Position numbers and translations under genes: made by a program
Shown here: positions 9,313-52,222 of the stretch, in pieces
Layout of the letters: every line of letters starts with the position of its first letter
How positions within the stretch are numbered: position 1 is the first letter of the stretch
Notes under the pieces: generated by a model
The model's input: the letters and a program-made list of their open reading frames with translations, nothing else
Databases searched by the model: none
What the model was told of the DNA's origin: nothing
Origin: an uncultured virus (IMG/VR IMGVR_UViG_3300042297_000490)
Taxonomy: Duplodnaviria > Heunggongvirae > Uroviricota > Caudoviricetes
Strand: one strand, 5' to 3'
Virus record (IMG/VR): IMGVR_UViG_3300042297_000490
Length of the DNA stretch: 64,000 nucleotides

Positions 9313-11516
9313 CTTCGTTTGATTTAATTAACACCATGTCATGCAACACATCATTATCCAAACTTAAATTTATTCTTGGTGAATGTGTAGCCAAGTTGAG
9401 GAACCATTCGGATTCTCCCTGCATCTTGAATAACTTTACACCTTTATTGTAAAATGAAAGTGCTTGTTGCTTGCTTGTGAAAATTTCTTTCACACAAGTC
9501 GATGTATGTGTGCGATGTTTATCGCATTCATATACAATGTAAATCATAAGTTTGATAGTTTAAGAAAGTGATTGTACACACCAGGAATATGTTTTTTGTA
9601 ATATGGTTGGTTTTCCTTACACCATTTTTTAAGATCTTCTTTGCATATAAAAGGTTTGGTCCAACCATTTCCGCGCATTATACAATTAAAAGTCGGTGAT
9701 AATTCTTTGATGAAATCTGCTACAGTCCATCCTTCCCAGATGTGTTTGTTATAATCTATTTTAGCCATGATTTTTAAATTTTATGATACGCAGGTTAAAC
9801 ATTTAGGACAAAAACTTATATCGCCAGTGTACTCATGGTGACATTTGTGACATTCTTTTTGTTCAGTCAAATCATCAATGAATATTAAATCAATTGGATC
9901 AAACTCATAATCATCATCAACATTTACAAATATTGTACATTTATCTTCTGGTATGTACCCACAGGAATCAAATAAACTTTTTACTGTTATTGTGTTAGAA
10001 CCTGTTGTTCTTATTGCATTAATAACTTCTCTGCCAATATTCAATACATCATCTTCATCTGAAAAATACCATGCAATAAAATCAGATGCTGTAATAGAAC
10101 CTTTCATTTCTTCAATTACTACATCATCATAACCTGTAGCTACACAATTAGCTGCTAAACTTTCTGCTTCTTTTTTGGTTAGGTAGTTGTCATTTGCTTC
10201 AAGGCCACCTATCCAAACTGTAAATCTTCTTTCCATCACTTGATTTTTAATTTTTTACGTAACCAATCATTTTCATTTCGGTTATAACTTACCATAAATC
10301 CTGCTCCAGTTTTTGCATTTTGCATACTTCCACCACATCTATTCTCAAGAACACTTAATGCTATTTCTTTGTCATATAATGCACCATCAGATGGTTGGAA
10401 ACACATGTTATCATAGTCATCTCTGCTATTTGCTCTGTCAATTTTATACTTGCTCATAATTTTGTTATTAATAATAAGGACTCTCTTAAATCTAATGCTG
10501 CACGTTTGATTGCACCGCGTTCTTTTATTGTATATGATGGACGTTTTTCAAGAAGTTCCTTTGCCATTCTTAATTTAAATGCGTCCATCTTTTTCTGGAA
10601 TCTTTCAATCTCCAGATTTACTTCTTTGATTGCTTTTGTTTCTTCACTAAAACCAGTCCAACTACTCATTTATTGGTCGCAGTTCGATTTGATACTTTAT
10701 GCATCTTAACAAAAGTTTTTCATTGTCTTGCTGTAACTTCCTAATCTTTTCTACAGTAAAAGCCTTTTCATCTTTCATTCGATTAAGTTTGTTTAACATC
10801 TGCGCAATATTGTTTTTTAACACTGTACTTTTGTATTCAGCATATTCTTTATGTACTTTTTCTAATTCCGCTCTTACTTCTTTGATTTGACTTAAAAGGT
10901 TTTGATTGGAATATCGCTCCCACAATAACTTTTCAGCTTGTGTGGGAGCACCTAATTTCATTAAGGGTTCATCTTCATTCGTCATCTGCTGTTCCGTTTC
11001 TATAAATTATTTCTCCATCGGTGTTATATATTTCCTGTGTGGAAGCACCGCCATTTTCTTCAACTGTCATTGGTTCTTCGCTTTCTAAATCAATATCGCA
11101 ATAATCAATATAACAATCATCAATTTCATCCGCTATATCATAAGGTGCATCGCAATCACCTTCTTTTAATTTTTGAATTACTTCTTCTAATTTTTCATCT
11201 GGAATTCGAACTCGCTTCCAGGTTGTTATTTTAAAATCTAAAAAATATGCCATTACTCGTGTATTAAAGTTTTTACTACTTGGTCGCGCATTGTTAATAC
11301 ACCAAAGTATTCAATGCATTCTTCAATTGTTATTCGTTCCATGCACCATTCTGTATTAAATCCATCTTGATGTTCAATGTATTTTAGAATCACATTGTTT
11401 TCAATTTGGTCAAGAACTACTGCATAATTTTCGACTGTAATATCAACAGTCATTTCTTTGTAACCACTTGGTTCAACCTGAACTTTAGTTACTGGAATTG
11501 ATAAGTTATAACTCAT
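9293..11516 (-). CDS. Run of eight small coupled hypothetical genes (9293-9547, 9544-9768, 9781-10239 with C-terminal CxxC..CxxC, 10236-10457, 10454-10669, 10662-10985, 10975-11253, 11253-11516)
   Basis: Overlapping or abutting start/stop codons on the same strand; no recognisable family. Confidence 0.55.
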
Positions 11517-16620: not shown

Positions 16621-17184
16621 TTAACATGGTGCTAATCCGAAAAACACATAACTTCCTCTGTCTTCTTTTGGACTTGATTTATAATTTATTCTTGCTACTT
16701 GACTACTTCCTGAATCTTTAGCAAGCCTTCTTTCTATTCTAACAACAGTTGTTTCGCCTGTTTCTTCAGTGTAAGTTCTGGCTCTTTTTACAGCTTCTGC
16801 TTTATTGTCAGATCCTTTTCCAACCCATGAATCGCTTGGCGTTGATGGTATGTATAACAATTCCCATTTGCGAGTTCCTTTAAATACAGCATGCTCAACA
16901 ACAGACTTAACTTTGTTTGCATTTCCTACAGGTTCTTTGTAACAAATACCCCAGGCATCACCACCTTTTCCATCAGCATCTTCATTTTTGTTGATGTAAT
17001 CTTCAAGTTTTAATTTGCTTGCTTTCCATGCATTTGTTTTATCAGCAAATCCATTTGAACAATTTATCTCACCTGAATAACCTTCTTGGTGACCATACTC
17101 ATCATCTGCATTTTCAACACATTGTTTGTATGCTTCATTCATGTTTTTAGCACGTGCGTAATTTGTATAATTGCTTGCTCCCAT
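16621..17184 (-). CDS. Hypothetical protein
   Basis: 187-aa ORF in operon. Confidence 0.6.
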   Translation of the reverse strand: MGASNYTNYARAKNMNEAYKQCVENADDEYGHQEGYSGEINCSNGFADKTNAWKASKLKLEDYINKNEDADGKGGDAWGICYKEPVGNANKVKSVVEHAVFKGTRKWELLYIPSTPSDSWVGKGSDNKAEAVKRARTYTEETGETTVVRIERRLAKDSGSSQVARINYKSSPKEDRGSYVFFGLAPC

Positions 17185-17612
17185 TATTTTATAATTTTAG
17201 TATTAATTAATTTCTCTGCTAATCGTTGACTCTCCCAATCTTGAGAGCGTAACATTCCTTGTAACTTTTGCAGTTCATTGTTGCTAATCCAATCTTTTTT
17301 GTAAAATACATCAAGTAGATTTAATAACATCGATGAAACTTTTGCTTGAAGTTGTTCTTGATTTTGAATATACTCATATCCTTTGTTTACCTTGGATTGA
17401 ATAAGTTTATCATAAATTTGTTTTGCTTTTTGATATGTTGTTGGCGTTGGTGTTTTAGTGCCTTCAACAAGATGATTTCCTCTTCTACCATATTCGAAAT
17501 CAACTATCCATTTTTGTTCGTTTGGATCTGATAATTCGAGTTTGACATTATAAACCTTGTCTGATCTATTGTCGTTATACCATAAATTCACTATGTTAAC
17601 TACTGAACTCAT
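17184..17612 (-). CDS. WGR-domain protein with C-terminal helical motif
   Basis: SDKVY...YGRRG...KLIQSKVNKGY is a WGR-domain signature. Confidence 0.75.
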   Translation of the reverse strand: MSSVVNIVNLWYNDNRSDKVYNVKLELSDPNEQKWIVDFEYGRRGNHLVEGTKTPTPTTYQKAKQIYDKLIQSKVNKGYEYIQNQEQLQAKVSSMLLNLLDVFYKKDWISNNELQKLQGMLRSQDWESQRLAEKLINTKIIK

Positions 17613-21304: not shown

Positions 21305-22210
21305 TTTTCTTGTTTATTAAGGTTTTTAATTTCAAAGTCTTTGCTTTCATACAAGTCACGTGAATCCCATTTACCTTGGGCTCTATAGTTAAATGTATTA
21401 CCGTAGATACGTATGACTTCTGTATCGTATCTCCATTCTGTTGGTATTCCTTCTTCAGTAACCAACTTACTTTTATTTTCACCAAAGGCTGTTTCTATAT
21501 ACAATTGAATGTGGTCAAACGACTCGTGTATTTGTAATACTGCCGATGCCTGTCTAATTGCTGCGATTGCATCATCTGATAATTCTAAATAAACTCCTAC
21601 AATTGTTTCAATGGAACCTTCTGGTTCGCATTCTGATTCAATATATATCACTTAAAAGTTTATGTGAATTAAGAAACTGATCTTTCTTTTTATAGTTGGG
21701 TATGTTTTTACCAACCATTTTGTAAAATCATCATCTGGTAATCCATCTATGTGACATTCAAGATACGTATGTATTTTAGGTCTTTTTAGTACTGGATGAT
21801 CGTGAAACTCTTTTGGAATTTCCATTAGAGTTATTACTGAACGTGTGATTGTTTTCATTTCTTTCTTTTTAGATTGTTCATAATCTTCAGTTCTGGAAGT
21901 ATTTTCTGAAATCATTTCAAAGACTTCTTTTGCAGTTAAACTACCTGAATGCTTGATGTAGATAGTTCTTGCAGGTTTCATGCTATTTTTTAAATTGTTC
22001 AAACCATTCTTCGGGTAATTCTAATTCTACTGTTTCATCTCTATTAAGTAAGTATAAATCTCTCTTATATAATAATTGCAATACTTCTTCCTCACTATAC
22101 ATTCTTTCTGCTTGGTATTTAGCACCTTCAATAAAATCATTGTAGTACCTGTTGTTGTTGTCCTCTACTATGTATTTTTCAGCAGCTTCTTCTAATGTTT
22201 CTTTTTCCAT
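21292..22210 (-). CDS. Three small hypothetical genes (21292-21651, 21652-22002, 21983-22210) between MoxR and vWA genes
   Basis: Coupled ORFs; the last begins KETLEEAAEKY. Confidence 0.55.
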
Positions 22211-30057: not shown

Positions 30058-32088
30058 TTGTTGTATGGTTTGATTGTAAAGTAAGATACGTATGGATCAT
30101 CAAATAGTTTCATCTTTTTTGCAAGATAGCATTTAACAATATCACAGGCATATTCGACAAAGGTTTCATACTCGTTTGGATCCATGTTGTTGGCCGACAA
30201 ATAATTTTTTAGCATCGTTTCATTGATTGATTCTAATATTTCATACGCTTCTGGTATAAGTTCATCAATGTACTCTTGATCGCAGTGCTTTATTTTTAAT
30301 TGTGGTTCGCCAACATAAACTCTTTCATTGCAGATTAATGTTACTACTCGTTTACTAATCCACATGCTGTCGTATGGGTGTTTTGTCATTATGATATTGT
30401 TTAAGTACATACTAACAATAATATAATGTTTTTAATTGACACTCTCCCATTCTTTTCCTTGAATAGTATCATCTAACTTTTCATAGTCTTCTATAGTTGA
30501 CCAATCTTCGTCATCTATCAATCGTTCCCATTCTTCATCACTAATAGTACCATGATCGTGTGTTTCAGTTTCTTCAGGGTTTGTTAAATAATAACAACTA
30601 TCAAATTCTTCATCTGTTAAATAACGATGTTCTAAAATTGGTTCTTCACCTTCTTCTACATCTCCATGGTTTAATCGATAGTGTTCATATATTTTATTAC
30701 CTGATTCTTCTGCTTCTTGAATAAAATCAACTGTAAATTTTAATGCAAGCCATTTAACATTTTCTGGATTAGAATTCCATTTTGAGTCATATCTGATTTG
30801 AATAAAAGGATTGTCAATTTCTGATTCTTCATTTACATTTTCATCTTCAACACTTATGTTGAAAAAGTAACCATCTTCAGGTGCATCTTGTATAATTGGT
30901 ACAACACCCATTCCTGTTTCGATAGCTCTTGTTTCCATGTCCTTAAATATCTTTAGCAATTGCTGTAGATTTTCGCGAGGACCTTCAAAAGTTACATTGT
31001 TCCAACACCAATTAGCCATTTCAGTCGAATTCTGGGTTAATGCCAACAGTTTGGCCATAATGATGTCGTAGTTTAGAACTTGGGCCATTCTTTGGGAATA
31101 ACTTTCGGTTCCTGTGCTTGTTGTCTTTCTTCATTTACTTTGATTTTTGATATGTGAATTAAAGTATATTTTTCTTCATCGTAACTTTTACTACGTACTG
31201 GATACAACATACCTTTGATGAACTCCATGTAATGTTCTTTGATGAAACTATCGTGATCTGGTAAAGGATTGTAACTATACAATAAATGATGCACAGATGC
31301 ATGATTAGTTACGTTAATTATTTCAGCAATTTCACGAAGATTGTATCCTGCTGCAAATGCAAGTTTTGCTGTATGATATTTCATAGCAACCATGTGTGTT
31401 GAACGATGCTTGTATCCAGCAAAGTAACTACCAGCAAGTTGTAATACAGGATTGTTTTCTCTTACTGCGTTAGGATCTGTTTTACCATAGAGTTTATAAT
31501 TAATCTTTCCATGGTTCACCGTTGTAGATTCGTTTTTCATCTTTGGACAGTGTTTTGTAATTATATGTTGGTAATTTGGTACACAACATTTCTTTTTCAG
31601 TCATATATGGCTCGTTCTTATAGCCAAAGTAGATTGTATTTTCAAATAAGCAGTTGTCATACCACCTAGTTAATTGTGAATAGACCATAATGGACTGTTC
31701 AATTTCTTCTAAAGTTGTATTTTTTAATGTTGATGCTACTTCATTTGGTGTACAACCACCTATTATCATTTCAGATACTTTCTTGTGCCATGATTGATCA
31801 CGCGATGTGAAACACATCAGGTTTAATCATTTCTTCGATTTCAGCATGTGCTTTAGCCATATCTTCTGTATAGATTGCAAATCGTTTTGGACTCCAGTAG
31901 TGATAGGGAAAACAGTTTTCTCCAAGAGGTTTTTCAATGATGTGAAAGCCTTGTGCTTGCGATGATAGTAAAAACTCTACACCGCCTACTGTGTACACTT
32001 CTTGGTCAACAACACGACAATCAATTGGAATTTCCATAGGAATATTCTTGTCGTCTATGCATATTACTTTAAATGGTTCTACTTGCAT
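30054..32088 (-). CDS. Five hypothetical genes (30054-30410; 30432-31088, ferredoxin-like DUF1281/YubB-like MANWCWN; 31073-31540, HTH-like; 31500-31817; 31798-32088)
   Basis: Coupled ORFs; weak motif resemblance only. Confidence 0.5.
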
Positions 32089-32348
32089 TAATTTGCTGAT
32101 ATTAATTCGGTTTTTAATCCCAATTTTTCAAGACTTTCCTGAATGGTAATTAAATCCATTATGTCACCTTCTTTTACGGTGCATCTACCTACGTTGTTTG
32201 CAATAACAATACATTGTTCTGCTTGAAAGAACTCGTGCTTGCAGTATCTTATTAAGGATGCTCTAACGTAGTCGTAACTATGTTCGCTGTCATTAAATAG
32301 TACCAAGTGTTTTTCTGATGTCATATCTGAAAATTTTAGTTTTGTCAA
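32088..32348 (-). CDS. clpS: ClpS adaptor protein
   Basis: LVLFNDSEHSYDYV..L...H...QAEQC...GRCTVKEG, Bacteroidota-type ClpS pattern. Confidence 0.8.
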   Translation of the reverse strand: MTKLKFSDMTSEKHLVLFNDSEHSYDYVRASLIRYCKHEFFQAEQCIVIANNVGRCTVKEGDIMDLITIQESLEKLGLKTELISAN

Positions 32349-36840: not shown

Positions 36841-37750
36841 AACTTACAATTCTTTCTTCTTTTTTATTCTCTCCTTCAATAGTTTTACGATACTGTTTGA
36901 AACCTTTGAAGTTACCTGATTCATATACACCAGTTACTACTTGAGCAACATGTTCAAATGGGCTCATGTGCCCTGATTCTTTAAGCATGTCGTGCAACTT
37001 GATGTCTGATTTGTAATCATCTTTACCTTCAAAGTTCATATATGATACACGAGCACAACGAGCAACAGCAATTTTAATTTGTAAATCTTGTGTACTAAAT
37101 CTTTCTTTATCCATTAAATCCCAACACCATTGGTCGGTTTGTTTATCGTAATCAAATAGATGTTCAAATTTTGCTGTATTAATTTTATCACCGAAAGGAA
37201 TATGCCATTGACCTGGTTCCAACATCTTTGGTGTACTGTTATTCAAAGCATCTAATACTTTGTATGCAGCATCTTGAATGTGAATCTCTGCCATATCATG
37301 CGCACGTAGTGCAATGAAATTTTCCCACTCGGTTGCTGTAGCAATAATTGTGTGGTACAAGAAGGGTTCTAACAATCTATTACATAGTTGTTTGGTAACA
37401 CCTAATTCATTTAATGCTTTGGCTTGTAACATTGCTGTATCTCTAGCACTCAACCATTCAGATTGTATTGCTTCTTCAGCATCTCCAACATAGTATTTAG
37501 TACCCTGCATACCTGTATGTTCCTGTTGGAATCTTGTTGGTACGAATGGATTTTTATACACTTGTTCAAGCATTTTCTTGAATGGTATGGCTCTGGATGA
37601 TGCAGAATTTCTACTGATTGCACGATGCGTATTAAACTCGGCTAATACGATACGAGGTAACGTGATTACCAACGATGTAAGTCTATTACCTGAACGGTTA
37701 AGACTATCTGCAATTACTCTTGCTGTAATGTTTGGGTTATCTGTTTTCAT
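36818..37750 (-). CDS. thyX: Flavin-dependent thymidylate synthase
   Basis: AEFNTHRAISRNSASSRAIP, KQLCNRLLEPF, ARCARVSY, HMSPFEH. Confidence 0.9.
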   Translation of the reverse strand: MKTDNPNITARVIADSLNRSGNRLTSLVITLPRIVLAEFNTHRAISRNSASSRAIPFKKMLEQVYKNPFVPTRFQQEHTGMQGTKYYVGDAEEAIQSEWLSARDTAMLQAKALNELGVTKQLCNRLLEPFLYHTIIATATEWENFIALRAHDMAEIHIQDAAYKVLDALNNSTPKMLEPGQWHIPFGDKINTAKFEHLFDYDKQTDQWCWDLMDKERFSTQDLQIKIAVARCARVSYMNFEGKDDYKSDIKLHDMLKESGHMSPFEHVAQVVTGVYESGNFKGFKQYRKTIEGENKKEERIVSYGYGKNN

Positions 37751-38294
37751 TTAGTTTTATGTTTTTTAATATTTGTTCTGTTACATCTATAAAGGATTCT
37801 TCCATGTATTCAATTACTTCCATATCATCTGTTGATGGTACAAATAATTCAATATTATGTCTGTCTTCAATATGAAAACAAATAGTTGTAGCATCTACAA
37901 CTTCTTTAATGTCCAACTCATTTGCATTATACTTTACAAGAACAGTCAGTGTTATTTCAACATACTTGTCATCTAAATAATCAATGGTCATTGTATCGTT
38001 AAATTTCAATAACTCTTCACAAATTTCATTAAAACGTGAGTCATCTTCACCAACATAATCATTTGTAGTAATGTTACTGAATATGTATTCATCTTTCCAA
38101 GTTGCAAGTTCGAACAAATCATCTTTCATCAATCTTGAATCGGATCTATCTGCACGCATTGAGTCACCAATCCAACCAATTAATTCATCAAGGAATGATT
38201 CCCTATGTGTAATCTTCCAGTCTGATTGTTCATTCATGAATATTTCATCATCTATTTTAATTCCATTAATGGAATCTTCTCCTAATTTATACAT
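37737..38294 (-). CDS. Hypothetical acidic protein
   Basis: 185-aa ORF. Confidence 0.6.
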   Translation of the reverse strand: MYKLGEDSINGIKIDDEIFMNEQSDWKITHRESFLDELIGWIGDSMRADRSDSRLMKDDLFELATWKDEYIFSNITTNDYVGEDDSRFNEICEELLKFNDTMTIDYLDDKYVEITLTVLVKYNANELDIKEVVDATTICFHIEDRHNIELFVPSTDDMEVIEYMEESFIDVTEQILKNIKLNENR

Positions 38295-38322
38295 GGGTTT
38301 TGTTTTTAAATTACATAATAAA

Positions 38323-38502
38323 AAATAACTCTTACCTTGCCAGGGTTGTATTTTCAGGGCTTTAACCTGACGTATGGATCATAATGTCCATGCCTGCGCC
38401 TTCCATATTTCATAAGGTCTTATACTTACATTGCAAATAACGTACATTGGCGATGTACCATAACAATTAATTGCTATCTATTTGGTCCGTTAAGAGTTAT
38501 TT
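38323..38502 (-). ncRNA. Candidate ~180-nt multibranch structured RNA
   Basis: 12-bp perfect terminal stem AAATAACTCTTA/TAAGAGTTATTT enclosing at least five hairpins. Confidence 0.5.
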
Positions 38503-38504
38503 AG

Positions 38505-38650
38505 TGGTGAGAGCAGGAATCGAACCTGCCTATGCTATTAAGGTAACACATTTATCCGTTTTCGGTGCCTATTACACGTTGCCTTACCTTTTGCAACAAA
38601 CACTTCATCATTCACAGAGAGGTCTAACACCAGTACCTCCATTCCTCACC
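38505..38650 (-). ncRNA. tRNA-like RNA (146 nt) with expanded anticodon domain
   Basis: Acceptor stem GGTGAGG/TCTCACC-A, T-arm GCAGG-TTCGATT-CCTGC, D-like arm GAGGT..ACCTC, stem CTGTG/CATAG enclosing ~78 nt. Confidence 0.65.
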
Positions 38651-38697
38651 TGCGTATAATTTCCGAACTAATAAGTCATCCCATATACGCCCATTTT

Positions 38698-39198
38698 TTA
38701 TTCTTCAATCAAATGATTGTAGTTTGTACCATAGGTACTGTTTTTTGCAAGTTGCATTGCTGCTTTTTCATGACAATCTTGGTCATTGCTTGGTTTAATT
38801 GTTATATTTTTTGATTTTAATATTGCCTGTAATGTTTGTTCTAATGTATTGGCACCATCACTAATTTTAAGAGTTCCGTATTTTTTCCAATTAGTTGAGT
38901 CGTCAACTGTACCACCTAATAAAGCTCTTACAAAATCATCTCCCACATATACAACTCTGTAATCAGCTTCAAACGTGAATGCTTCACTATAAACTCCTTT
39001 ACCTACAACCAAAGGTACAGTTGCTTTTAAATTAGGAATTACAACGATCATTGATGCTTTTTTAACGAGTTTTGTGTCATATACGCCACCATTATGTTCA
39101 AGAATGTTAAATTCAGGATACTTTTTTATAGTGGTGCGAACTTGAAGCAAGTCATCCATACTTGCTTCGTTCGACTTACTGATGTAAACATTAATCAT
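38698..39198 (-). CDS. Nucleoside deoxyribosyltransferase/TIR-like fold protein
   Basis: VYISKS at the N-terminus, D..LVKKASMIVV, VGKGVYSE pattern. Confidence 0.4.
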   Translation of the reverse strand: MINVYISKSNEASMDDLLQVRTTIKKYPEFNILEHNGGVYDTKLVKKASMIVVIPNLKATVPLVVGKGVYSEAFTFEADYRVVYVGDDFVRALLGGTVDDSTNWKKYGTLKISDGANTLEQTLQAILKSKNITIKPSNDQDCHEKAAMQLAKNSTYGTNYNHLIEE

Positions 39199-42100
39199 TT
39201 GCTTCATCGTTACCATCGACCATCCATTCAGAATCGATTTCTTTTGCAACTTTGATTTCAATCTCTTTCAATCTAATGTCCATTTTCAATGCGTGGATTT
39301 GTTTAATCCATTCTGATGCATCAAATGATTCATCAACGACACGTAATGATGTAGATTCATCTGGTCCAATGTCAGTTAAGGCATTAAGTCTTTTGATTGA
39401 CTCACGCTTTTCTTTTTCTAACTGTGCAATAAATGCTGTTGATTCTGCAGCGATGTCTTCCATTGCTGTTTTTGCTCTTGCTGATAACACTGCTTTATTA
39501 TCTGCTGATAACATTCTTTCTAACTTGTTCATTTTCTTTATTTTAAAATTATTAATACTTGTTTGATGATTGATTGATGATAGTAACTAAAAAATAGTTC
39601 CTTCATCGATTATGATAAAGGAACTATAAATATAAAATGTTTATTGTACTTCTACAAATAAACCTTTATCATCTTGTTCAACACTTATTTCTCCACCCCA
39701 TTGAACATCGACAATGTTTCCTGCGGTTAAATCTTTTTTGATTTTCTTACACATTCTTTCCATGTCTTTCGGTGTCATGTTACCTTGTGCATTTACGTGA
39801 TCGTTCCAAATTATATACACACCAACTCTATACAATTGTGTTGAATAGTTTTCTTTAGAGCCATCTGGCAATGTTACCACTGCGGACTTATTGTATGTCC
39901 ATGTAGATTTATTTGCCATTACGCTTCAGTTGTAGGTTTTCCTGGAAAATCTTTAGTGATGCTGTTCTCTTCTTCTACAGTACTACCTGTAGTTAAGTTT
40001 GCAAACAAATCATCTGCATCTTTTTTACCCAAGTTTTGTTCAACGATTGAACGTAGTTGCATTGCAGCTACTGCAATTTCCATAAGGTTGCTACCATTCA
40101 ATGCAATCTTTAACTTTACTCCATCTTCTACAGTTGTTTCTGCGAAGTCTATGATAATTTGTGTTGACATACTTATTTTATTTTTTCGTAAATAGTTTCA
40201 CCATTGCTGAACCTTGCGGTAACAACTAATGGCATTGAATTTTCTGTAAATAGTTTTTCTGTTACTTCAATAAGAGAATCTTGAATGTTATCCACCCATT
40301 TCTCTGCATTTCTTGATTGAATTTTTCTTAAACCTGCATTCATATAGGTCATATTATCTTCAATTGTATAGTCTGTGTGTTCAATAAGTTCTGTTTCTCC
40401 TGCAAAGGTACAAGTTAAATACCAATCAAGTGAAGCACCTTCATAATATGCATGTCTTGCTACACAATTTATGTTTACTTGCACTTCTACATCTCCAAAT
40501 CCTTTACAAACATATAGTTGAAACAAAGGTGTGGATCCATATGATCGCAATGAATGCGGATCTTCCATCTCTAACTCTTTATAGTATTTGATGTTGTTCT
40601 TTATTGCTAATGCTTCTGCTTGCAATCTGATGTCTTGTATAAAACAATCTATATCCCATGTGTCTGGTGCAATAGTTTCTGTTTCACCTGTTTCATTTTC
40701 ATCCTCGTCAAGAATTTCTTGCTCATAGTTCATCATTACAGCGTAAGTATTGCGAGCATTAACTGTATAAAAGTTACTTGTTCCCATATACTTTAAATTT
40801 GAATGCACCCCAAAGGATGCTGATTTCTTTTATGACTTCTTTCTTTTTCTCGGTAGCAATAAGAGATTGTCCTTGTTCTGGTACAAACTCTTTGTCTATG
40901 TCGTGGTCAGCACCTTTTTCAGGCTTGTGAATTATAACAACTTGTTTAACCATAGGATCATCACCAGCAACTTCTTCCGCTTGTTTTTTCAACCTTGCTC
41001 TTGCATCGCGTGCTTTAGCAGCAGCATAATCAATTACTTCTTTGATTTCTTCCAACGGTTTTTTCATTGGTTCATCAGTTATGTAAAGCGCAGTTTGTAC
41101 TGGTTGAGGATTACTCTTAACAGGTGTACAGGAAATCAATTCAGGCTGTTTCTTTTCTACCGGAATTGGCTCAACAACTTTCTCACGTGCTGCATAGATA
41201 CCATTAGCATAATAGTAGGAACCTTTTTCATTTCTGATTTTGATACTTGATATGTCACCTTCTATGCACTCATGTTCAAATTTTCCTACTGATTTACACA
41301 TGGCTCTGTTAGGTGCTCTACCTACATCATCTATTGGAACATAAGAGATTCCTTTTTTGTAACGCTCACGAATTTCTGCAGTAATTGATTCAAGAGTCTT
41401 TTCAAATTCAATCATTTCATCTGTTGCTGATATATGAATAGGTGTTTCCTCGTATTGGAATACAACAGGTAAAGACTTGTATTTCTTTTTTAATACATTT
41501 TCTTTTAACCATTTTAATTTTTCTTCTGGCATACCACCTGGTATAGCATTAAAATGTGCAATGGTATCTGTTGTTTCTGAATCCAATATGTAATCTAACA
41601 CATGATCATCGCTCATAAACTCTAATAAACTTGTTGTGTTACACCATGCATCGAACGATAAGTCTGATATGTTTTTCTTTTCGTTCATGTGTTGTTCAAT
41701 TTTTTTGGACAACGACAATGCATTCTTCTCTTTACCGTAGATGTAACACTCTTCTAATATAAAATCAACCATTTCCATTGTAGGAAAGTTAGTTGTCCAT
41801 GTGTAGAAGGTATTGCCTGTCTTTTTGGTATAATGTTTAAGGATCATCATTGTGATGTTGTTACCAACTTTCAATTCTTTTCCTTTACTTTGAAGGTTTT
41901 TCTGCTTATCTTTTTTACATTCATTGTAGATATGCATCATTATTTCGAACACTTTTTCTTTATGTTCATTGGTGTATTCTTTTCTTCTGCTCTTGTATGG
42001 TCTTTTAGTTGTCATGCTTGTAGTAGTTTAGTTCGTTGACTCTCTTCCATTCTTAATTCAGTACCACTTTTGTGGTAGAATTTTGGTGTTATAGAAAAGT

Positions 42101-43296: not shown

Positions 43297-43932
43297 TTAG
43301 CCATGTTGTTTATCGATTTGTTCTTGAAGAGCATCCCATATAGTACGCGGTCTATCAGGCTTATTCATTAATGCTTCAAGGTCGAATTCGTATTTGTATT
43401 CACGCATCTCTTCCAATGCACGTTCATAAAATTCTACCATTGATTGAGCCATTGCTATCTTACCTTTATACTGGCGTACCTTTTCTTCGATCATCATTGA
43501 TAAGAAGTTAACACCTTCATTTTCTTTTGATACACGAAGGATGCTCTTCTCTATTTTTTCTACGTGTTTGCTGTATTCTTTGATAGCATCGTTTGCTTTT
43601 TTTAATTCTTCACGTAGCACACCGATACCATGTCCAATCAAGTCGATGTTTAAATCATCAGACTTTTCTATCTCTGGTATTAGTACCTCTAATATGAATG
43701 AAGCAAACCTTTCTTGGAAGGCATCCTTTATTTCTGTTTCACCTGTTGTATCGTAGTGTTCACGTTTCTTATCGCTACCTAGTACATCATACGCTAACTG
43801 AATTGTTTGGAATACTTCCTTGTCACCACCTTTATCAGGATGATTTTCTTTAACACCTTTACGATGGGCTTTCTTTATTTGTTCCTTGGTCGCATCTTTG
43901 TTGACACCGAGAACATCATATAGGTTTTTCAT
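43297..43932 (-). CDS. J-domain (DnaJ-type) protein
   Basis: LYDVLGV...IKKAHRK...HPDKGG...AYDVL..KREHYD. Confidence 0.88.
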   Translation of the reverse strand: MKNLYDVLGVNKDATKEQIKKAHRKGVKENHPDKGGDKEVFQTIQLAYDVLGSDKKREHYDTTGETEIKDAFQERFASFILEVLIPEIEKSDDLNIDLIGHGIGVLREELKKANDAIKEYSKHVEKIEKSILRVSKENEGVNFLSMMIEEKVRQYKGKIAMAQSMVEFYERALEEMREYKYEFDLEALMNKPDRPRTIWDALQEQIDKQHG

Positions 43933-51805: not shown

Positions 51806-52222
51806 ATGTGGATATACGAAGGTAAAGAATTTTTGGAAGAGCATGTTCCAGAAGATGGCTTTGGTTTCATTTATGAAATGGCGGCTATCGTTGATGGGAA
51901 ATCAGTTCGATACATTGGTAAAAAGAATTTTTTTGCAGATGTTAAAACAAAATTGGCAAAGAAAGATATGCCAACAGACAAGCGATTGAAGACCTATACA
52001 AGAAAGCGCAAGTTTACATATCAAAATTACTTTAGTAGTAATGAAGTATTGAAAACTGCACACAAAGATGGTGTGGTTATCAAACGTGAGATTGTACGCA
52101 TCTGCAAAAGCAAAACCGAATTGTCGTATTGGGAAACCAAGTTACAATTTGTATATGGCGTATTGGAGTCCGATGAATTTCTGAATGGAAACATACTCGG
52201 AAAGTTTTACAACATAAAGTAA
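51806..52222 (+). CDS. GIY-YIG-like nuclease
   Basis: GFIY...YIGKK...YFSS...E...NGNI. Confidence 0.65.
   Translation: MWIYEGKEFLEEHVPEDGFGFIYEMAAIVDGKSVRYIGKKNFFADVKTKLAKKDMPTDKRLKTYTRKRKFTYQNYFSSNEVLKTAHKDGVVIKREIVRICKSKTELSYWETKLQFVYGVLESDEFLNGNILGKFYNIK

What the first reader, a model, noticed from the sequence alone, without database searches (positions are those of the whole stretch)
38505..38650. tRNA-shaped RNA whose anticodon loop is replaced by a pseudoknotted ~78-nt domain
Seen on the minus strand: a 7-bp acceptor stem (GGTGAGG/TCTCACC, discriminator A, no encoded CCA), a canonical T-arm (GCAGG-TTCGATT-CCTGC), a D-like arm (GAGGT-ACTGGTGTTAG-ACCTC) and a 5-bp stem CTGTG/CATAG at the anticodon-stem position. 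That stem encloses GTGTTT/AGGCAC, a hairpin GTTGC-AAAAGGTAAG-GCAAC whose loop AAGGTAA is complementary to a downstream TTACCTT (pseudoknot), and CCG-AAAA-CGG. It is too long for a tRNA and too short for tmRNA, and lacks the G3:U70 Ala determinant. Inference: an undescribed phage tRNA mimic, for example a decoy for tRNA-targeting defence nucleases, a ribosome ligand, or a processing handle.
Basis: partly seen in the sequence, partly recalled or inferred. Interest (0 to 1): 0.85.

Follow-up and report, generated by a model that had tools for sequence, protein, structure and literature searches.

The report
Non-decoding tyrosine-tRNA look-alike in lake phage
A freshwater phage carries a 146-base RNA gene that keeps the outer frame of a bacterial tyrosine tRNA but has a long folded arm where the anticodon should be, so it almost certainly cannot decode and may act as a tRNA mimic, perhaps a decoy.

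Summary
The element at 38505-38650 (minus strand) is real. It has a 7-bp acceptor stem, a canonical T arm, a D arm with GG, discriminator A and no encoded CCA. ARAGORN and Rfam do not call it.

New here:
- Its T arm plus 3' acceptor strand matches bacterial tRNA-Tyr(GUA) genes (41 of 45 exact-pattern hits).
- A syntenic relative (L137) has a 91-nt version with the same T stem and trailer, and compensatory acceptor changes.
- One lake metatranscriptome contig covers only the RNA plus a 29-nt leader, with the insert unspliced.

That fold is the CUGUG/CAUAG stem, the small hairpins and the pseudoknot. Thermodynamics and one natural variant (G94>A) favour a 5-bp helix 33-37/92-96, a long distal hairpin and a 7-bp variable-arm-like hairpin 101-120.

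No homologue of the ~78-nt insert was found, so the inner fold is untested by covariation.

Best reading: a tRNA-Tyr-derived, non-decoding stable RNA. It is closest in architecture to T4 species 1 RNA (rnaC) and is possibly a decoy for tRNA-Tyr-cleaving defences. A decaying pseudogene remains a serious rival.

The parts
38651..38725 (-). Conserved leader/promoter block upstream of the RNA (overlaps the last 28 nt of the 187-aa ORF)
   Evidence: RNA contig X19 starts at 38679 and runs into the RNA without differences in the leader. RNA contig X20 shares 38644-38725 (1 other letter) and is unlike on both sides. TTGATT-19 nt-TATATG lies just upstream of 38679 (read). The promoter scan did not list it, so the promoter is inferred.
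38505..38650 (-). 146-nt tRNA-Tyr-derived tRNA-like RNA (whole element)
   Evidence: Sequence. z -2.89. Own model R1 scores 186 bits, by construction. The tRNA-Tyr model R2 hits it at 25.9 bits, E 1.3e-4. RNA contig 38514-38679 at depth 7.7, with flanks uncovered.
38644..38650 (-). Acceptor stem, 5' strand GGUGAGG (RNA 1-7)
   Evidence: Pairs with 38506-38512. Pair probability is 0.99-1.0 for six pairs and 0.2 for G7.U. Covaries across relatives.
38618..38640 (-). D arm (RNA 11-33): 5-6 bp stem, 11-nt loop ACUGGUGUUAG containing GG
   Evidence: Pair probability 0.98-0.99 for five pairs. The stem is longer than the 3-bp D stem of bacterial tRNA-Tyr.
38555..38618 (-). Extended arm replacing the anticodon arm (RNA 33-96): base helix 33-37/92-96, internal loop, distal helix 48-53/81-86 that continues either as 54-59/75-80 or as hairpin 54-58/69-73
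   Evidence: Pair probabilities and energies. Variant G94>A makes U35-A94, and U80>C can pair with G54 or G50. It contains CUGUGAA (34-40) and GUGUAAU (74-80), both close to the tRNA-Tyr anticodon loop CUGUAAA.
38531..38550 (-). Variable-arm-like hairpin (RNA 101-120): 7 bp, 6-nt loop CCUUAA
Evidence: Pair probability 0.79-0.97. It sits at the position of the class II variable arm.
38513..38529 (-). T arm GCAGG-UUCGAUU-CCUGC (RNA 122-138)
   Evidence: Pair probability 1.0. The stem is identical to that of bacterial tRNA-Tyr(GUA) genes.
38505..38512 (-). Acceptor 3' strand UCUCACC plus discriminator A; no encoded CCA
   Evidence: The same strand and the same ACUAA trailer occur in L137 element A, with C>U matching G2>A.
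38315..38504 (-). Downstream non-coding module B': several hairpins closed by a 12-bp helix (38491-38502 with 38323-38334), followed by a U-rich run
   Evidence: Fold (z only -1.26). L137 has a module at the same place, starting 2 nt after the discriminator. It is closed by a different 10-bp helix and the same UUUUAUUAUG tail. It is not covered by the RNA contig.
38299..38324 (-). AT-rich motif in front of the next gene (185-aa ORF 37737-38294)
   Evidence: 96% match to L137 1055-1079, and a 20-nt match just upstream of thyX in L002-type loci.

Best explanation
The element is a small RNA gene that a freshwater, crAss-related phage derived from a class II tyrosine tRNA.

**What it keeps.** It keeps the parts that tRNA-handling enzymes read: the 7-bp acceptor stem with A73, the T arm, and a D arm whose GG can form the elbow with the T loop.

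**What it has lost.** It has no working anticodon arm. In its place is a long irregular arm with a 5-bp base helix, an internal loop and a distal hairpin of 6-12 bp. A 7-bp hairpin follows where tRNA-Tyr has its variable arm.

**How it is probably made.**
- Transcription starts from its own promoter about 29 nt upstream (hint from one RNA contig).
- The ends are trimmed by the host's tRNA-processing enzymes and CCA is added (inferred).
- The product accumulates as a stable, unspliced RNA of about 146 nt (one RNA contig).

**What it probably does.** The arm is far too long for the ribosomal decoding site, so it does not read codons (inferred from geometry). The most likely role is molecular mimicry of host tRNA-Tyr: it would occupy or distract a factor that recognises the tRNA-Tyr body. 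The best candidate is a defence nuclease of the Septu or retron-PtuAB kind, which cleaves the tRNA-Tyr variable arm.

**How sure.** I put about 0.7 on 'real, expressed, tRNA-Tyr-derived non-decoding RNA'. I put about 0.3 on the decoy mechanism specifically.
For: **tRNA frame present and not due to chance**
- Sequence.
- z -2.89, with 2 of 200 shuffles as stable.

**The frame is that of tRNA-Tyr**
- The pattern made of its T arm plus 3' acceptor strand finds 45 loci in one-genome-per-species bacteria.
- ARAGORN calls tRNA-Tyr(GUA) over the match in 41 of them, 'Phe(AAA)' in 1, and nothing in 3.
- A covariance model built from 12 of these tRNA-Tyr genes hits the window element (25.9 bits, E 1.3e-4), L137-A (32.6), L137-C (23.2) and the single tRNA of the complete relative G003 (33.1).

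**The frame is under selection**
- L137 is syntenic with the window. Its 185-aa homologue is 52% identical, its ThyX 67%, and the downstream genes match.
- At the same place L137 holds a 91-nt element with an identical T stem and ACUAA trailer. Its acceptor reads GAUGAGA/UCUCAUC, which is G2-C71 changed to A-U and G7.U66 changed to A-U.
- Over 9 sequences the two stems are 99.1% paired, with 8 of 12 pairs changed on both sides. No shuffle (0 of 500) and no slid control comes near.

**Expression**
- One contig of a lake metatranscriptome (166 nt, depth 7.7) covers 38514-38679 only.
- The flanking coding sequence within the laid stretch is uncovered in that run.
- The insert is present and no joint is reported.

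**Non-decoding**
- No 7-nt loop with U33 sits at the right distance in any model.
- Position 8 is A rather than U.
- ARAGORN and Rfam do not call it.

**Context for a decoy role**
- Septu and retron-Eco7 cleave the variable arm of tRNA-Tyr.
- The inner part of this locus differs in every relative seen: X20, L137-A and L137-C, and G003. Rapid diversification would produce this pattern.
Against: **No homologue of the insert, so no covariation test of the inner fold.** All of these searches for the ~78-nt insert found nothing:
- blastn against 50,697 phage records;
- four pattern scans of viral contigs;
- one metagenome pattern scan;
- model R1 over 5 related records and 31 sources.

Records very near the window may be hidden from these collections.

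**Weak support for structure and expression.**
- The inner domain alone is barely more stable than shuffles (z -1.65).
- Expression rests on one contig of one run. Contigs cannot show ends or strand, and the tool warns that DNA can be present in RNA libraries.
- That contig keeps the 29-nt leader, so 5' processing is not shown.

**Signs of decay.**
- L137-A has lost both the GG of the D loop and the UUC of the T loop.
- The window RNA has A8.
- An internal GGUAAGG (63-69) and two anticodon-loop-like heptamers suggest a fused or duplicated gene remnant.

**Nothing links this phage or its unknown host to a tRNA-Tyr-cleaving system.** No RNA-repair or tRNA enzyme was found among the window's proteins.
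Confidence: 0.5

Rival explanations
1. It is a decaying or rearranged tRNA-Tyr gene with no function of its own, for example two partial copies fused. It is still transcribed from the old tRNA promoter and folds stably only because tRNA halves pair well.
For: - No decoding-competent anticodon arm, and A8 instead of U8.
- An internal GGUAAGG at 63-69 resembles the 5' acceptor strand. The tRNA-Tyr model prefers to start its alignment there.
- CUGUGAA (34-40) and GUGUAAU (74-80) both look like mutated copies of the tRNA-Tyr loop CUGUAAA.
- Relatives carry differently degenerate versions. L137-A lacks the GG and UUC motifs. L137-C has no anticodon stem. The G003 tRNA has an A.A mismatch.
- The insert has no homologue anywhere searched.
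Against: - The acceptor and T stems are kept by compensatory changes between phages.
- The leader is conserved in three sequence variants.
- The RNA contig reaches depth 7.7 while the flanks are unassembled in the same run.
- The phage genome is tightly packed, yet it keeps about 400 nt of non-coding DNA here, and L137 keeps about 1.08 kb.
- Two of the three natural substitutions turn G.U pairs into Watson-Crick pairs.
Confidence: 0.25
2. It is a natural 'tRNA scaffold' or processing handle. The tRNA frame recruits RNase P and RNase Z and protects the RNA, while the inner arm is the cargo (a small regulatory RNA or a protein-binding hairpin). Alternatively, the element simply punctuates the transcript between the 187-aa and 185-aa genes.
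For: - The frame stays constant while the inner part is swapped between relatives. X20 shares only the leader plus the first 7 nt. L137-A shares only the frame.
- A second structured module follows directly and ends in a U-run.
- The RNA contig stops close to the predicted 3' end and does not cover the downstream module.
- Engineered tRNA scaffolds work this way (PMC3753655, seen only as a search listing and abstract).
Against: - No target was found. The 15-nt apical loop has no complement elsewhere in the 64-kb window at up to 3 mismatches, other than its own gene.
- The cargo is not conserved.
- The 5' leader is still attached in the only RNA contig.
Confidence: 0.15
3. It is an intron-containing decoding tRNA, like the 'enigmatic' tRNA introns of Lak megaphages. 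The insert would be removed to give a functional class II tRNA.
For: - With introns allowed and the score threshold lowered to 90%, ARAGORN reports a 93-nt tRNA-Leu(CAA) with a 54-nt intron (RNA 35-88) and a long variable arm.
- Lak phages of Prevotella carry unexplained introns in tRNAs, including tRNA-Tyr(GTA) (PMC6784885, passages and Table S6 read).
- A UGUAA motif, equivalent to U33-GUA-A37, lies at 75-79.
Against: - ARAGORN finds nothing at its default threshold or with plain -ps.
- The relaxed call needs an anticodon stem with two mismatches. It also destroys the strong D stem, whose pair probability is 0.98-0.99.
- Natural variant G94>A adds a third mismatch to that stem.
- The only RNA contig holds the insert, with no joint.
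- There is no group I intron or ribozyme hit in Rfam.
- In the Lak example the exons rebuild a canonical anticodon arm, which is not so here.
- No splicing endonuclease or RNA ligase was seen among the window's proteins.
Confidence: 0.07
4. It is a miniature tmRNA-like or Y-RNA-like (YrlA) molecule.
For: - It has a tRNA-like acceptor and T arm without an anticodon.
- A short frame starting at GCA (position 69) ends in UAA UAG (read).
Against: - No G3:U70.
- ARAGORN's tmRNA mode finds nothing even at an 80% threshold.
- No tmRNA, Y RNA or YrlA match in Rfam at E up to 10.
- The D arm has a full stem, unlike a tmRNA.
- No Ro/Rsr protein was found in the window.
Confidence: 0.02

Closest known systems
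Phage T4 species 1 RNA (rnaC, 139 nt; with rnaD, next to the T4 tRNA cluster)
   Same: - It is a small stable phage RNA of nearly the same size.
- Its predicted layout is the same: a terminal acceptor-like helix, one long irregular hairpin, a second hairpin at the variable-arm position, then a canonical T arm (CCGGG-UUCGAAU-CCCGG) abutting the 3' strand.
- Rfam likewise gives only a sub-threshold tRNA-Sec match (17.5 bits, E 0.55, against 13.5 bits here).
- A second structured RNA lies next to it.
- Its function is unknown (PMC3014915, passage read).
   Different: - No detectable sequence or model homology: R1 hits T4 tRNA-Leu but not rnaC.
- rnaC has no D arm and an imperfect acceptor helix.
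- The window element stands alone, with no tRNA genes in 64 kb.
- The window element is recognisably tRNA-Tyr-derived.
Phage-encoded tRNA-Tyr that counters Septu and retron-Eco7 (T5, T6)
   Same: - Both are phage genes with the tRNA-Tyr frame.
- tRNA-Tyr is a proven target of defence nucleases that cut its variable arm.
- The phage copies differ in that arm or act by dosage, 'as a decoy or supplement' (PMC13096335 and PMC11555353, passages).
   Different: - Those are decoding tRNAs with a GUA anticodon. This one cannot decode.
- No experiment and no defence system is linked to this phage.
Bacterial class II tRNA-Tyr(GUA), e.g. of Flavobacteriaceae/Polaribacter and Campylobacterota
   Same: - The T stem, 6 of 7 T-loop bases, the 3' acceptor strand and A73 are identical.
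- The 5' strand GGUGAG is identical.
- A hairpin sits at the variable-arm position.
   Different: - 146 nt against 82-86 nt.
- A 5-6 bp D stem instead of 3 bp, and A8.
- The anticodon arm is replaced by an arm of about 64 nt.
- It scores only 25.9 bits on the tRNA-Tyr model, and only from an internal start.
'Enigmatic' tRNA introns of Lak megaphages (Devoto et al. 2019)
   Same: - A Bacteroidota-type phage lineage.
- An unexplained insert of about 50-100 nt in the anticodon region of a tRNA, including tRNA-Tyr.
- No known bacterial machinery to remove it.
   Different: - In Lak tRNA-Tyr the exons rebuild a canonical anticodon stem-loop, and the intron sits after position 37.
- Here no exon pair does so at normal thresholds.
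tRNA-like structures used as processing or stability modules (engineered tRNA scaffolds; MALAT1 mascRNA; gammaherpesvirus tRNA-miRNA units, the last two recalled)
   Same: A tRNA frame without decoding function that host tRNA enzymes can recognise.
   Different: - Those come from different organisms and have no sequence relation to this element.
- Processing is not shown here.

Membership tests
Canonical tRNA (Rfam RF00005 / ARAGORN) | 7-bp acceptor stem, 5-bp T stem with a UUCRANY loop, and a D arm with GG | tested here: met
   Covariation.
Canonical tRNA (Rfam RF00005 / ARAGORN) | 5-bp anticodon stem with a 7-nt loop (U33, anticodon, purine 37) directly after the D arm | tested here: not met
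   No such arm appears in the MFE or in any model. The arm spans about 64 nt.
Canonical tRNA (Rfam RF00005 / ARAGORN) | Called by standard detectors at their thresholds | tested here: not met
   ARAGORN finds 0 genes. Rfam has 0 matches at gathering score, and no RF00005 match at E up to 10.
Class II bacterial tRNA-Tyr(GUA) | Acceptor and T-arm sequence, and A73 | tested here: met
   41 of 45 exact-pattern loci are tRNA-Tyr(GUA). Alignment.
Class II bacterial tRNA-Tyr(GUA) | GUA anticodon in a 7-nt loop; long variable arm | tested here: inconclusive
   UGUAA occurs at 75-79, but it is either paired (probability 0.99) or displaced by an extra helix. A 7-bp hairpin is predicted at the variable-arm position, without covariation data.
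Intron-containing tRNA (group I, or Lak-type) | Exons rebuild a canonical anticodon arm; spliced RNA exists; group I core present if self-splicing | tested here: not met
The RNA contig is unspliced, though it is only one contig. No intron family in Rfam matches.
tmRNA | G3:U70, tag reading frame, pseudoknots, D loop without a stem | tested here: not met
   Position 3:70 is U3-A70 and the D stem is full. ARAGORN -m finds nothing. No Rfam hit.
YrlA / bacterial Y RNA | Ro-binding helix formed by the RNA's ends, a tRNA-like module at the tip, and an Rsr gene nearby | tested here: not met
   The ends form an acceptor stem instead. No Rfam match. No TROVE protein among the window proteins scanned.
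T4 species 1 RNA (rnaC)-type phage stable tRNA-like RNA | About 140 nt; terminal helix, long hairpin, second hairpin and canonical T arm | tested here: met
   Folds compared.
T4 species 1 RNA (rnaC)-type phage stable tRNA-like RNA | Sequence or covariance-model homology; processed stable RNA with CCA | tested here: not met
   R1 does not hit rnaC in L159, so homology is not shown. Processing cannot be tested with these tools.

The most novel reading that the evidence does not exclude
The element is a dedicated, non-decoding decoy of host tRNA-Tyr. It keeps exactly the parts that a tRNA-Tyr-cleaving defence nuclease (Septu or retron-PtuAB type) or another tRNA-Tyr reader recognises, but it cannot enter translation. 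It sits in a fast-evolving 'tRNA-like cassette' locus of freshwater crAss-related phages, where the frame is conserved and the inner arm is swapped.
Probability: 0.25. Interest if true: 0.8.

Novelty: new variant of a known kind. Interest (0 to 1): 0.55.

Why it matters
Phage tRNAs have recently been shown to defeat defences that cut host tRNAs, and tRNA-Tyr is one proven battleground. All known cases are working tRNAs.

A tRNA-Tyr frame that has given up decoding yet is kept, transcribed and rebuilt differently in each relative would be the first hint of a purpose-built RNA decoy of this kind. It would also give a lead on the 50-year-old puzzle of T4 species 1 and 2 RNAs.

If it is only a decaying gene, it still shows how quickly the single tRNA slot of these lake phages turns over. 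It also shows that standard tRNA finders miss such genes.

Tried and rejected
**1. Homologues of the insert: none found.**
- blastn against phage records found nothing over the 421-nt region, and only fragments of 31 nt or less over the 146 nt. That second search hit 68 records, 0 of which cover at least 80%.
- Exact or degenerate pattern scans of viral contigs returned 0.
- The looser D-loop-to-T-loop scan returned 117 or more stretches. All those inspected were tandem tRNAs or chance matches.
- A metagenome scan with the 21-nt leader-plus-acceptor pattern returned 0.
- The 30-nt loose end of contig X20 returned 0 in viral contigs.
- Searches with the 185-aa and 187-aa flanking proteins found no relative in viral contigs. 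In five related records there was only one weak hit.

**2. Own genome.** It is not held. G001 is the same phage but ends at about window position 22205.

**3. K-turn or C/D-box reading of AAUGAUGAAG.** The SNORD74 match is at E 2 only. There is no CUGA partner, and variant A43>G alters the motif.

**4. tmRNA-like tag frame.** Rejected; see the rival explanations.

**5. Archaeal bulge-helix-bulge intron.** By hand, neither the window element nor L002 shows two 3-nt bulges 4 bp apart. The phage has a bacterial-type endolysin and holin.

**6. Antisense target of the apical loop.** None in the window.

**7. RNA runs X18 and X20.** X18 covers only the upstream ORF at depth 2. X20 is a different, mosaic relative. 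Neither says anything about expression of this RNA.

**8. Habitat.** Runs holding the stretch are labelled lake water. Only four of them were laid.
Full report
**1. What is there**

Read on the minus strand, window 38650 to 38505 is a 146-nt sequence (numbered). Its features are:
- a 7-bp acceptor stem, GGUGAGG/UCUCACC, whose last pair is G.U;
- discriminator A followed by CUAA, so no CCA is encoded;
- a canonical T arm, GCAGG-UUCGAUU-CCUGC;
- a D arm, GGAGGU/ACCUCU, with an 11-nt loop containing GG.

It lies in a 403-nt non-coding gap between a 187-aa ORF (38698-39261) and a 185-aa ORF (37737-38294). All are on the minus strand, upstream of a ThyX gene.

Standard detectors do not call it:
- ARAGORN finds no tRNA or tmRNA in the whole 64 kb.
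- Rfam has no match at gathering score.
- At E up to 10 there are only noise-level hits: tRNA-Sec at 13.5 bits (E 9.1) and SNORD74 at 14.7 bits (E 2).

The RNA folds better than shuffles. The MFE is -46.2 kcal/mol, z is -2.89, and 2 of 200 shuffles do as well.

**2. Whose genome**

The window is a tailed phage. It encodes a terminase, a DNA polymerase, helicases, a primase, an endolysin, a holin and a crAss001_48-like protein.
- The best named relative of its DNA polymerase is Cellulophaga phage phi14:2, at 32% identity.
- IMG/VR record G001 is the same phage but ends at about window position 22205.
- The stretch occurs in 20 listed public runs from 14 studies, nearly all labelled lake water.

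**3. The frame is that of tRNA-Tyr**

I took a pattern made of the T arm plus the 3' acceptor strand and scanned one genome per bacterial species.
- It found 45 loci.
- ARAGORN calls tRNA-Tyr(GUA) over the match in 41, 'Phe(AAA)' in 1, and nothing in 3 truncated loci.
- The organisms are mostly Flavobacteriaceae/Polaribacter and Campylobacterota, with a few other phyla.

I then built a covariance model from 12 distinct tRNA-Tyr genes. Its hits were:
- G003's single tRNA: 33.1 bits;
- L137-A: 32.6 bits;
- the window element: 25.9 bits, E 1.3e-4;
- L137-C: 23.2 bits.

Bacterial tRNA-Tyr is a class II tRNA with a long variable arm. This bears on the fold discussed in section 6.

**4. Relatives**

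No homologue of the inner ~78 nt was found anywhere. Records very near the window may be hidden from these collections.

I used ThyX as an anchor and fetched 10 viral and 25 metagenome loci. The informative one is L137, which is syntenic:
- its 185-aa homologue is 52% identical over 173 residues;
- its ThyX is 67% identical;
- five downstream genes match.

In place of the window's 403-nt gap, L137 has about 1.08 kb without a long ORF. That region holds several tRNA-like pieces.

Element A (156-246, 91 nt) shares with the window RNA:
- the T stem;
- the 3' strand and the ACUAA trailer (18 nt at 94% identity).

Its acceptor reads GAUGAGA/UCUCAUC. That is a compensatory G2-C71 to A-U change, and G7.U66 to A-U. 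However, its T loop is UGUAAGU, its D loop has no GG, and its central hairpin has a 19-nt loop.

Over nine sequences (window, L137-A, L137-C, G003 and five bacterial tRNA-Tyr) the acceptor and T stems behave as follows:
- 99.1% of positions are paired;
- 8 of 12 pairs are changed on both sides;
- 0 of 500 shuffles reach this;
- slid controls give 42-53% paired.

The frame is therefore maintained by selection, or was until recently.

**5. RNA evidence**

I laid four runs on 38350-38800.
- **X19** is a lake metatranscriptome. It gives one 166-nt contig at depth 7.7 that covers 38514-38679 only. That is the RNA (short by 9 nt at its 3' end) plus a 29-nt leader. The coding flanks in the same stretch are uncovered in that run. 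The insert is present and no joint is reported.
- **X11** is a DNA run. It covers 38446-38732 without differences.
- **X20** is an RNA run. It has a contig that matches only 38644-38725 (the leader plus the first seven bases) and then continues into a different tRNA-like 5' part. The leader and acceptor are therefore a conserved block, and the body behind it has been exchanged.

These are contigs from single runs. They hint at a discrete, abundant, unspliced RNA but do not prove its ends or strand.

**6. Inner fold**

All of these exist as complementarities.

| Structure | Energy (kcal/mol) |
|---|---|
| Pseudoknot duplex, added on top | about -7.4 |
| Alternative model | -40.3 |
| MFE | -46.2 |

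The alternative model has 33-37/92-96, 48-59/75-86 and a hairpin 101-107/114-120.

Pair probabilities point the same way:
- 0.73 for most of 33-37/92-96;
- 0.89-0.99 for 48-59/75-86;
- 0.79-0.97 for 101-120.

The X19 variant differs from the window at three positions:
- A43>G is unpaired in all models.

With these changes the alternative model improves from -40.3 to -42.9.

So the base helix 33-37/92-96 and the variable-arm-like hairpin are favoured. The tip of the arm stays ambiguous, and the pseudoknot is neither supported nor excluded. The inner domain alone is only weakly special (z -1.65).

**7. Can it decode?**

No model places a 7-nt loop with U33 at the normal distance from the elbow.
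- A UGUAA motif (75-79) and CUGUGAA (34-40) both resemble the tRNA-Tyr loop CUGUAAA. Together with an internal GGUAAGG (63-69), they suggest descent from duplicated or fused tRNA-Tyr pieces.
- With introns allowed, ARAGORN finds nothing at default settings. At a 90% threshold it proposes tRNA-Leu(CAA) with a 54-nt intron. That reading needs two mismatches in the anticodon stem and sacrifices the strong D stem. G94>A would add a third mismatch.
- Lak megaphage tRNA introns, including one in tRNA-Tyr, are a published precedent for unexplained inserts (PMC6784885; passages and Table S6). There, however, the exons rebuild a normal anticodon arm.

I rate splicing as unlikely.

**8. Closest known and mechanism**

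T4 species 1 RNA (rnaC, 139 nt) folds into the same kind of layout: a terminal helix, a long hairpin, a second hairpin and a canonical T arm.
- It is equally invisible to Rfam.
- It lies beside a second small RNA.
- It still has no known role (PMC3014915).
- No homology to it is detectable.

Recent work shows that Septu and retron-Eco7 cut the variable arm of tRNA-Tyr, and that T5 and T6 answer with their own tRNA-Tyr (PMC13096335, PMC11555353).

Here a tRNA-Tyr frame cannot decode, keeps a distinct variable-arm hairpin, and has a different inner part in every relative. A decoy of such nucleases would look like this. That step is inference only.

**9. Verdict**

- The proposed pseudoknotted domain is not supported.
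- The element is best described as a tRNA-Tyr-derived, non-decoding tRNA-like RNA: a new variant of the poorly understood phage 'stable tRNA-like RNA' kind.
- Loss of function (a pseudogene) is the main rival.

Noticed in passing
L137:1-1083: A region of about 1.08 kb without a long ORF, upstream of the 185-aa homologue, is packed with tRNA-like pieces. These are element A (156-246), B (249-340, with a 10-bp terminal helix and a CAGG-UGAAGCU-CCUG hairpin), C (404-486, with a canonical T arm and GUGUAAA but no anticodon stem), further T-arm-like hairpins near 660-690 and 775-800, and a 30-nt repeat (532-561 = 720-749, 97%). Neither ARAGORN nor Rfam calls any tRNA there.
   Followed up: partly
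L137:799-1034 and L131:1843-2077 (G003): A non-coding stretch of about 240 nt is 82.5% identical between two phages, downstream of their tRNA-like genes. RNAalifold predicts 53 pairs, 9 of them with compensatory changes. There is no Rfam match at E up to 1, and no counterpart in the window.
   Followed up: partly
L002:1912-1997 (also L005, L136, L138, L140); variant in L134:758-843: An 86-nt tRNA scores 44 bits on Rfam tRNA, but its anticodon loop is 21-22 nt and has no U33 in register. ARAGORN does not call it even with introns allowed. The L134 variant keeps the acceptor stem through U-G/U-A swaps and changes the big loop.
   Followed up: partly
L131:1501-1590 (G003, complete 120.5-kb relative): The only tRNA of this phage has a class II body with a 21-nt variable region. 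ARAGORN calls it Lys(UUU), and it has an A.A mismatch in the anticodon stem and C at position 33. It scores 33 bits on the tRNA-Tyr model. It sits at a different genome position from the window's element.
   Followed up: partly
window 38315-38504 (minus strand): A second structured module follows the RNA directly. It is closed by a perfect 12-bp helix and followed by a U-rich run. L137-B occupies the same position with a different helix sequence. It may be a terminator or a processing element.
   Followed up: partly
window RNA positions 34-40, 63-69 and 74-80 (window 38617-38611, 38588-38582, 38577-38571): CUGUGAA and GUGUAAU both resemble the tRNA-Tyr anticodon loop, and GGUAAGG resembles the 5' acceptor strand. 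This hints that the RNA arose by fusion or duplication of tRNA-Tyr parts.
   Followed up: partly
L007 and L008 (ThyX loci): ThyX matches come in two pieces, separated by about 1.3 kb (L007) and about 130 nt (L008). This suggests an intron, an intein or an inserted gene within thyX in some relatives.
   Followed up: no
window 32088-32348, 43297-43932, 51806-52222, 10662-10985, 17184-17612: The phage encodes a ClpS-like adaptor, a DnaJ-domain protein and a SegE-type GIY-YIG homing endonuclease. It also has a weak ADP-ribosyltransferase-like match (below Pfam's cut-off) and a WGR-domain protein.
   Followed up: no
window 38299-38324; L137:1033-1079; L002:3947-3988: A conserved AT-rich motif (TTTTTATTATGTAATT..AAAAACA) lies directly upstream of start codons in several related phages. 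It is probably a shared promoter or translation-start signal.
   Followed up: no
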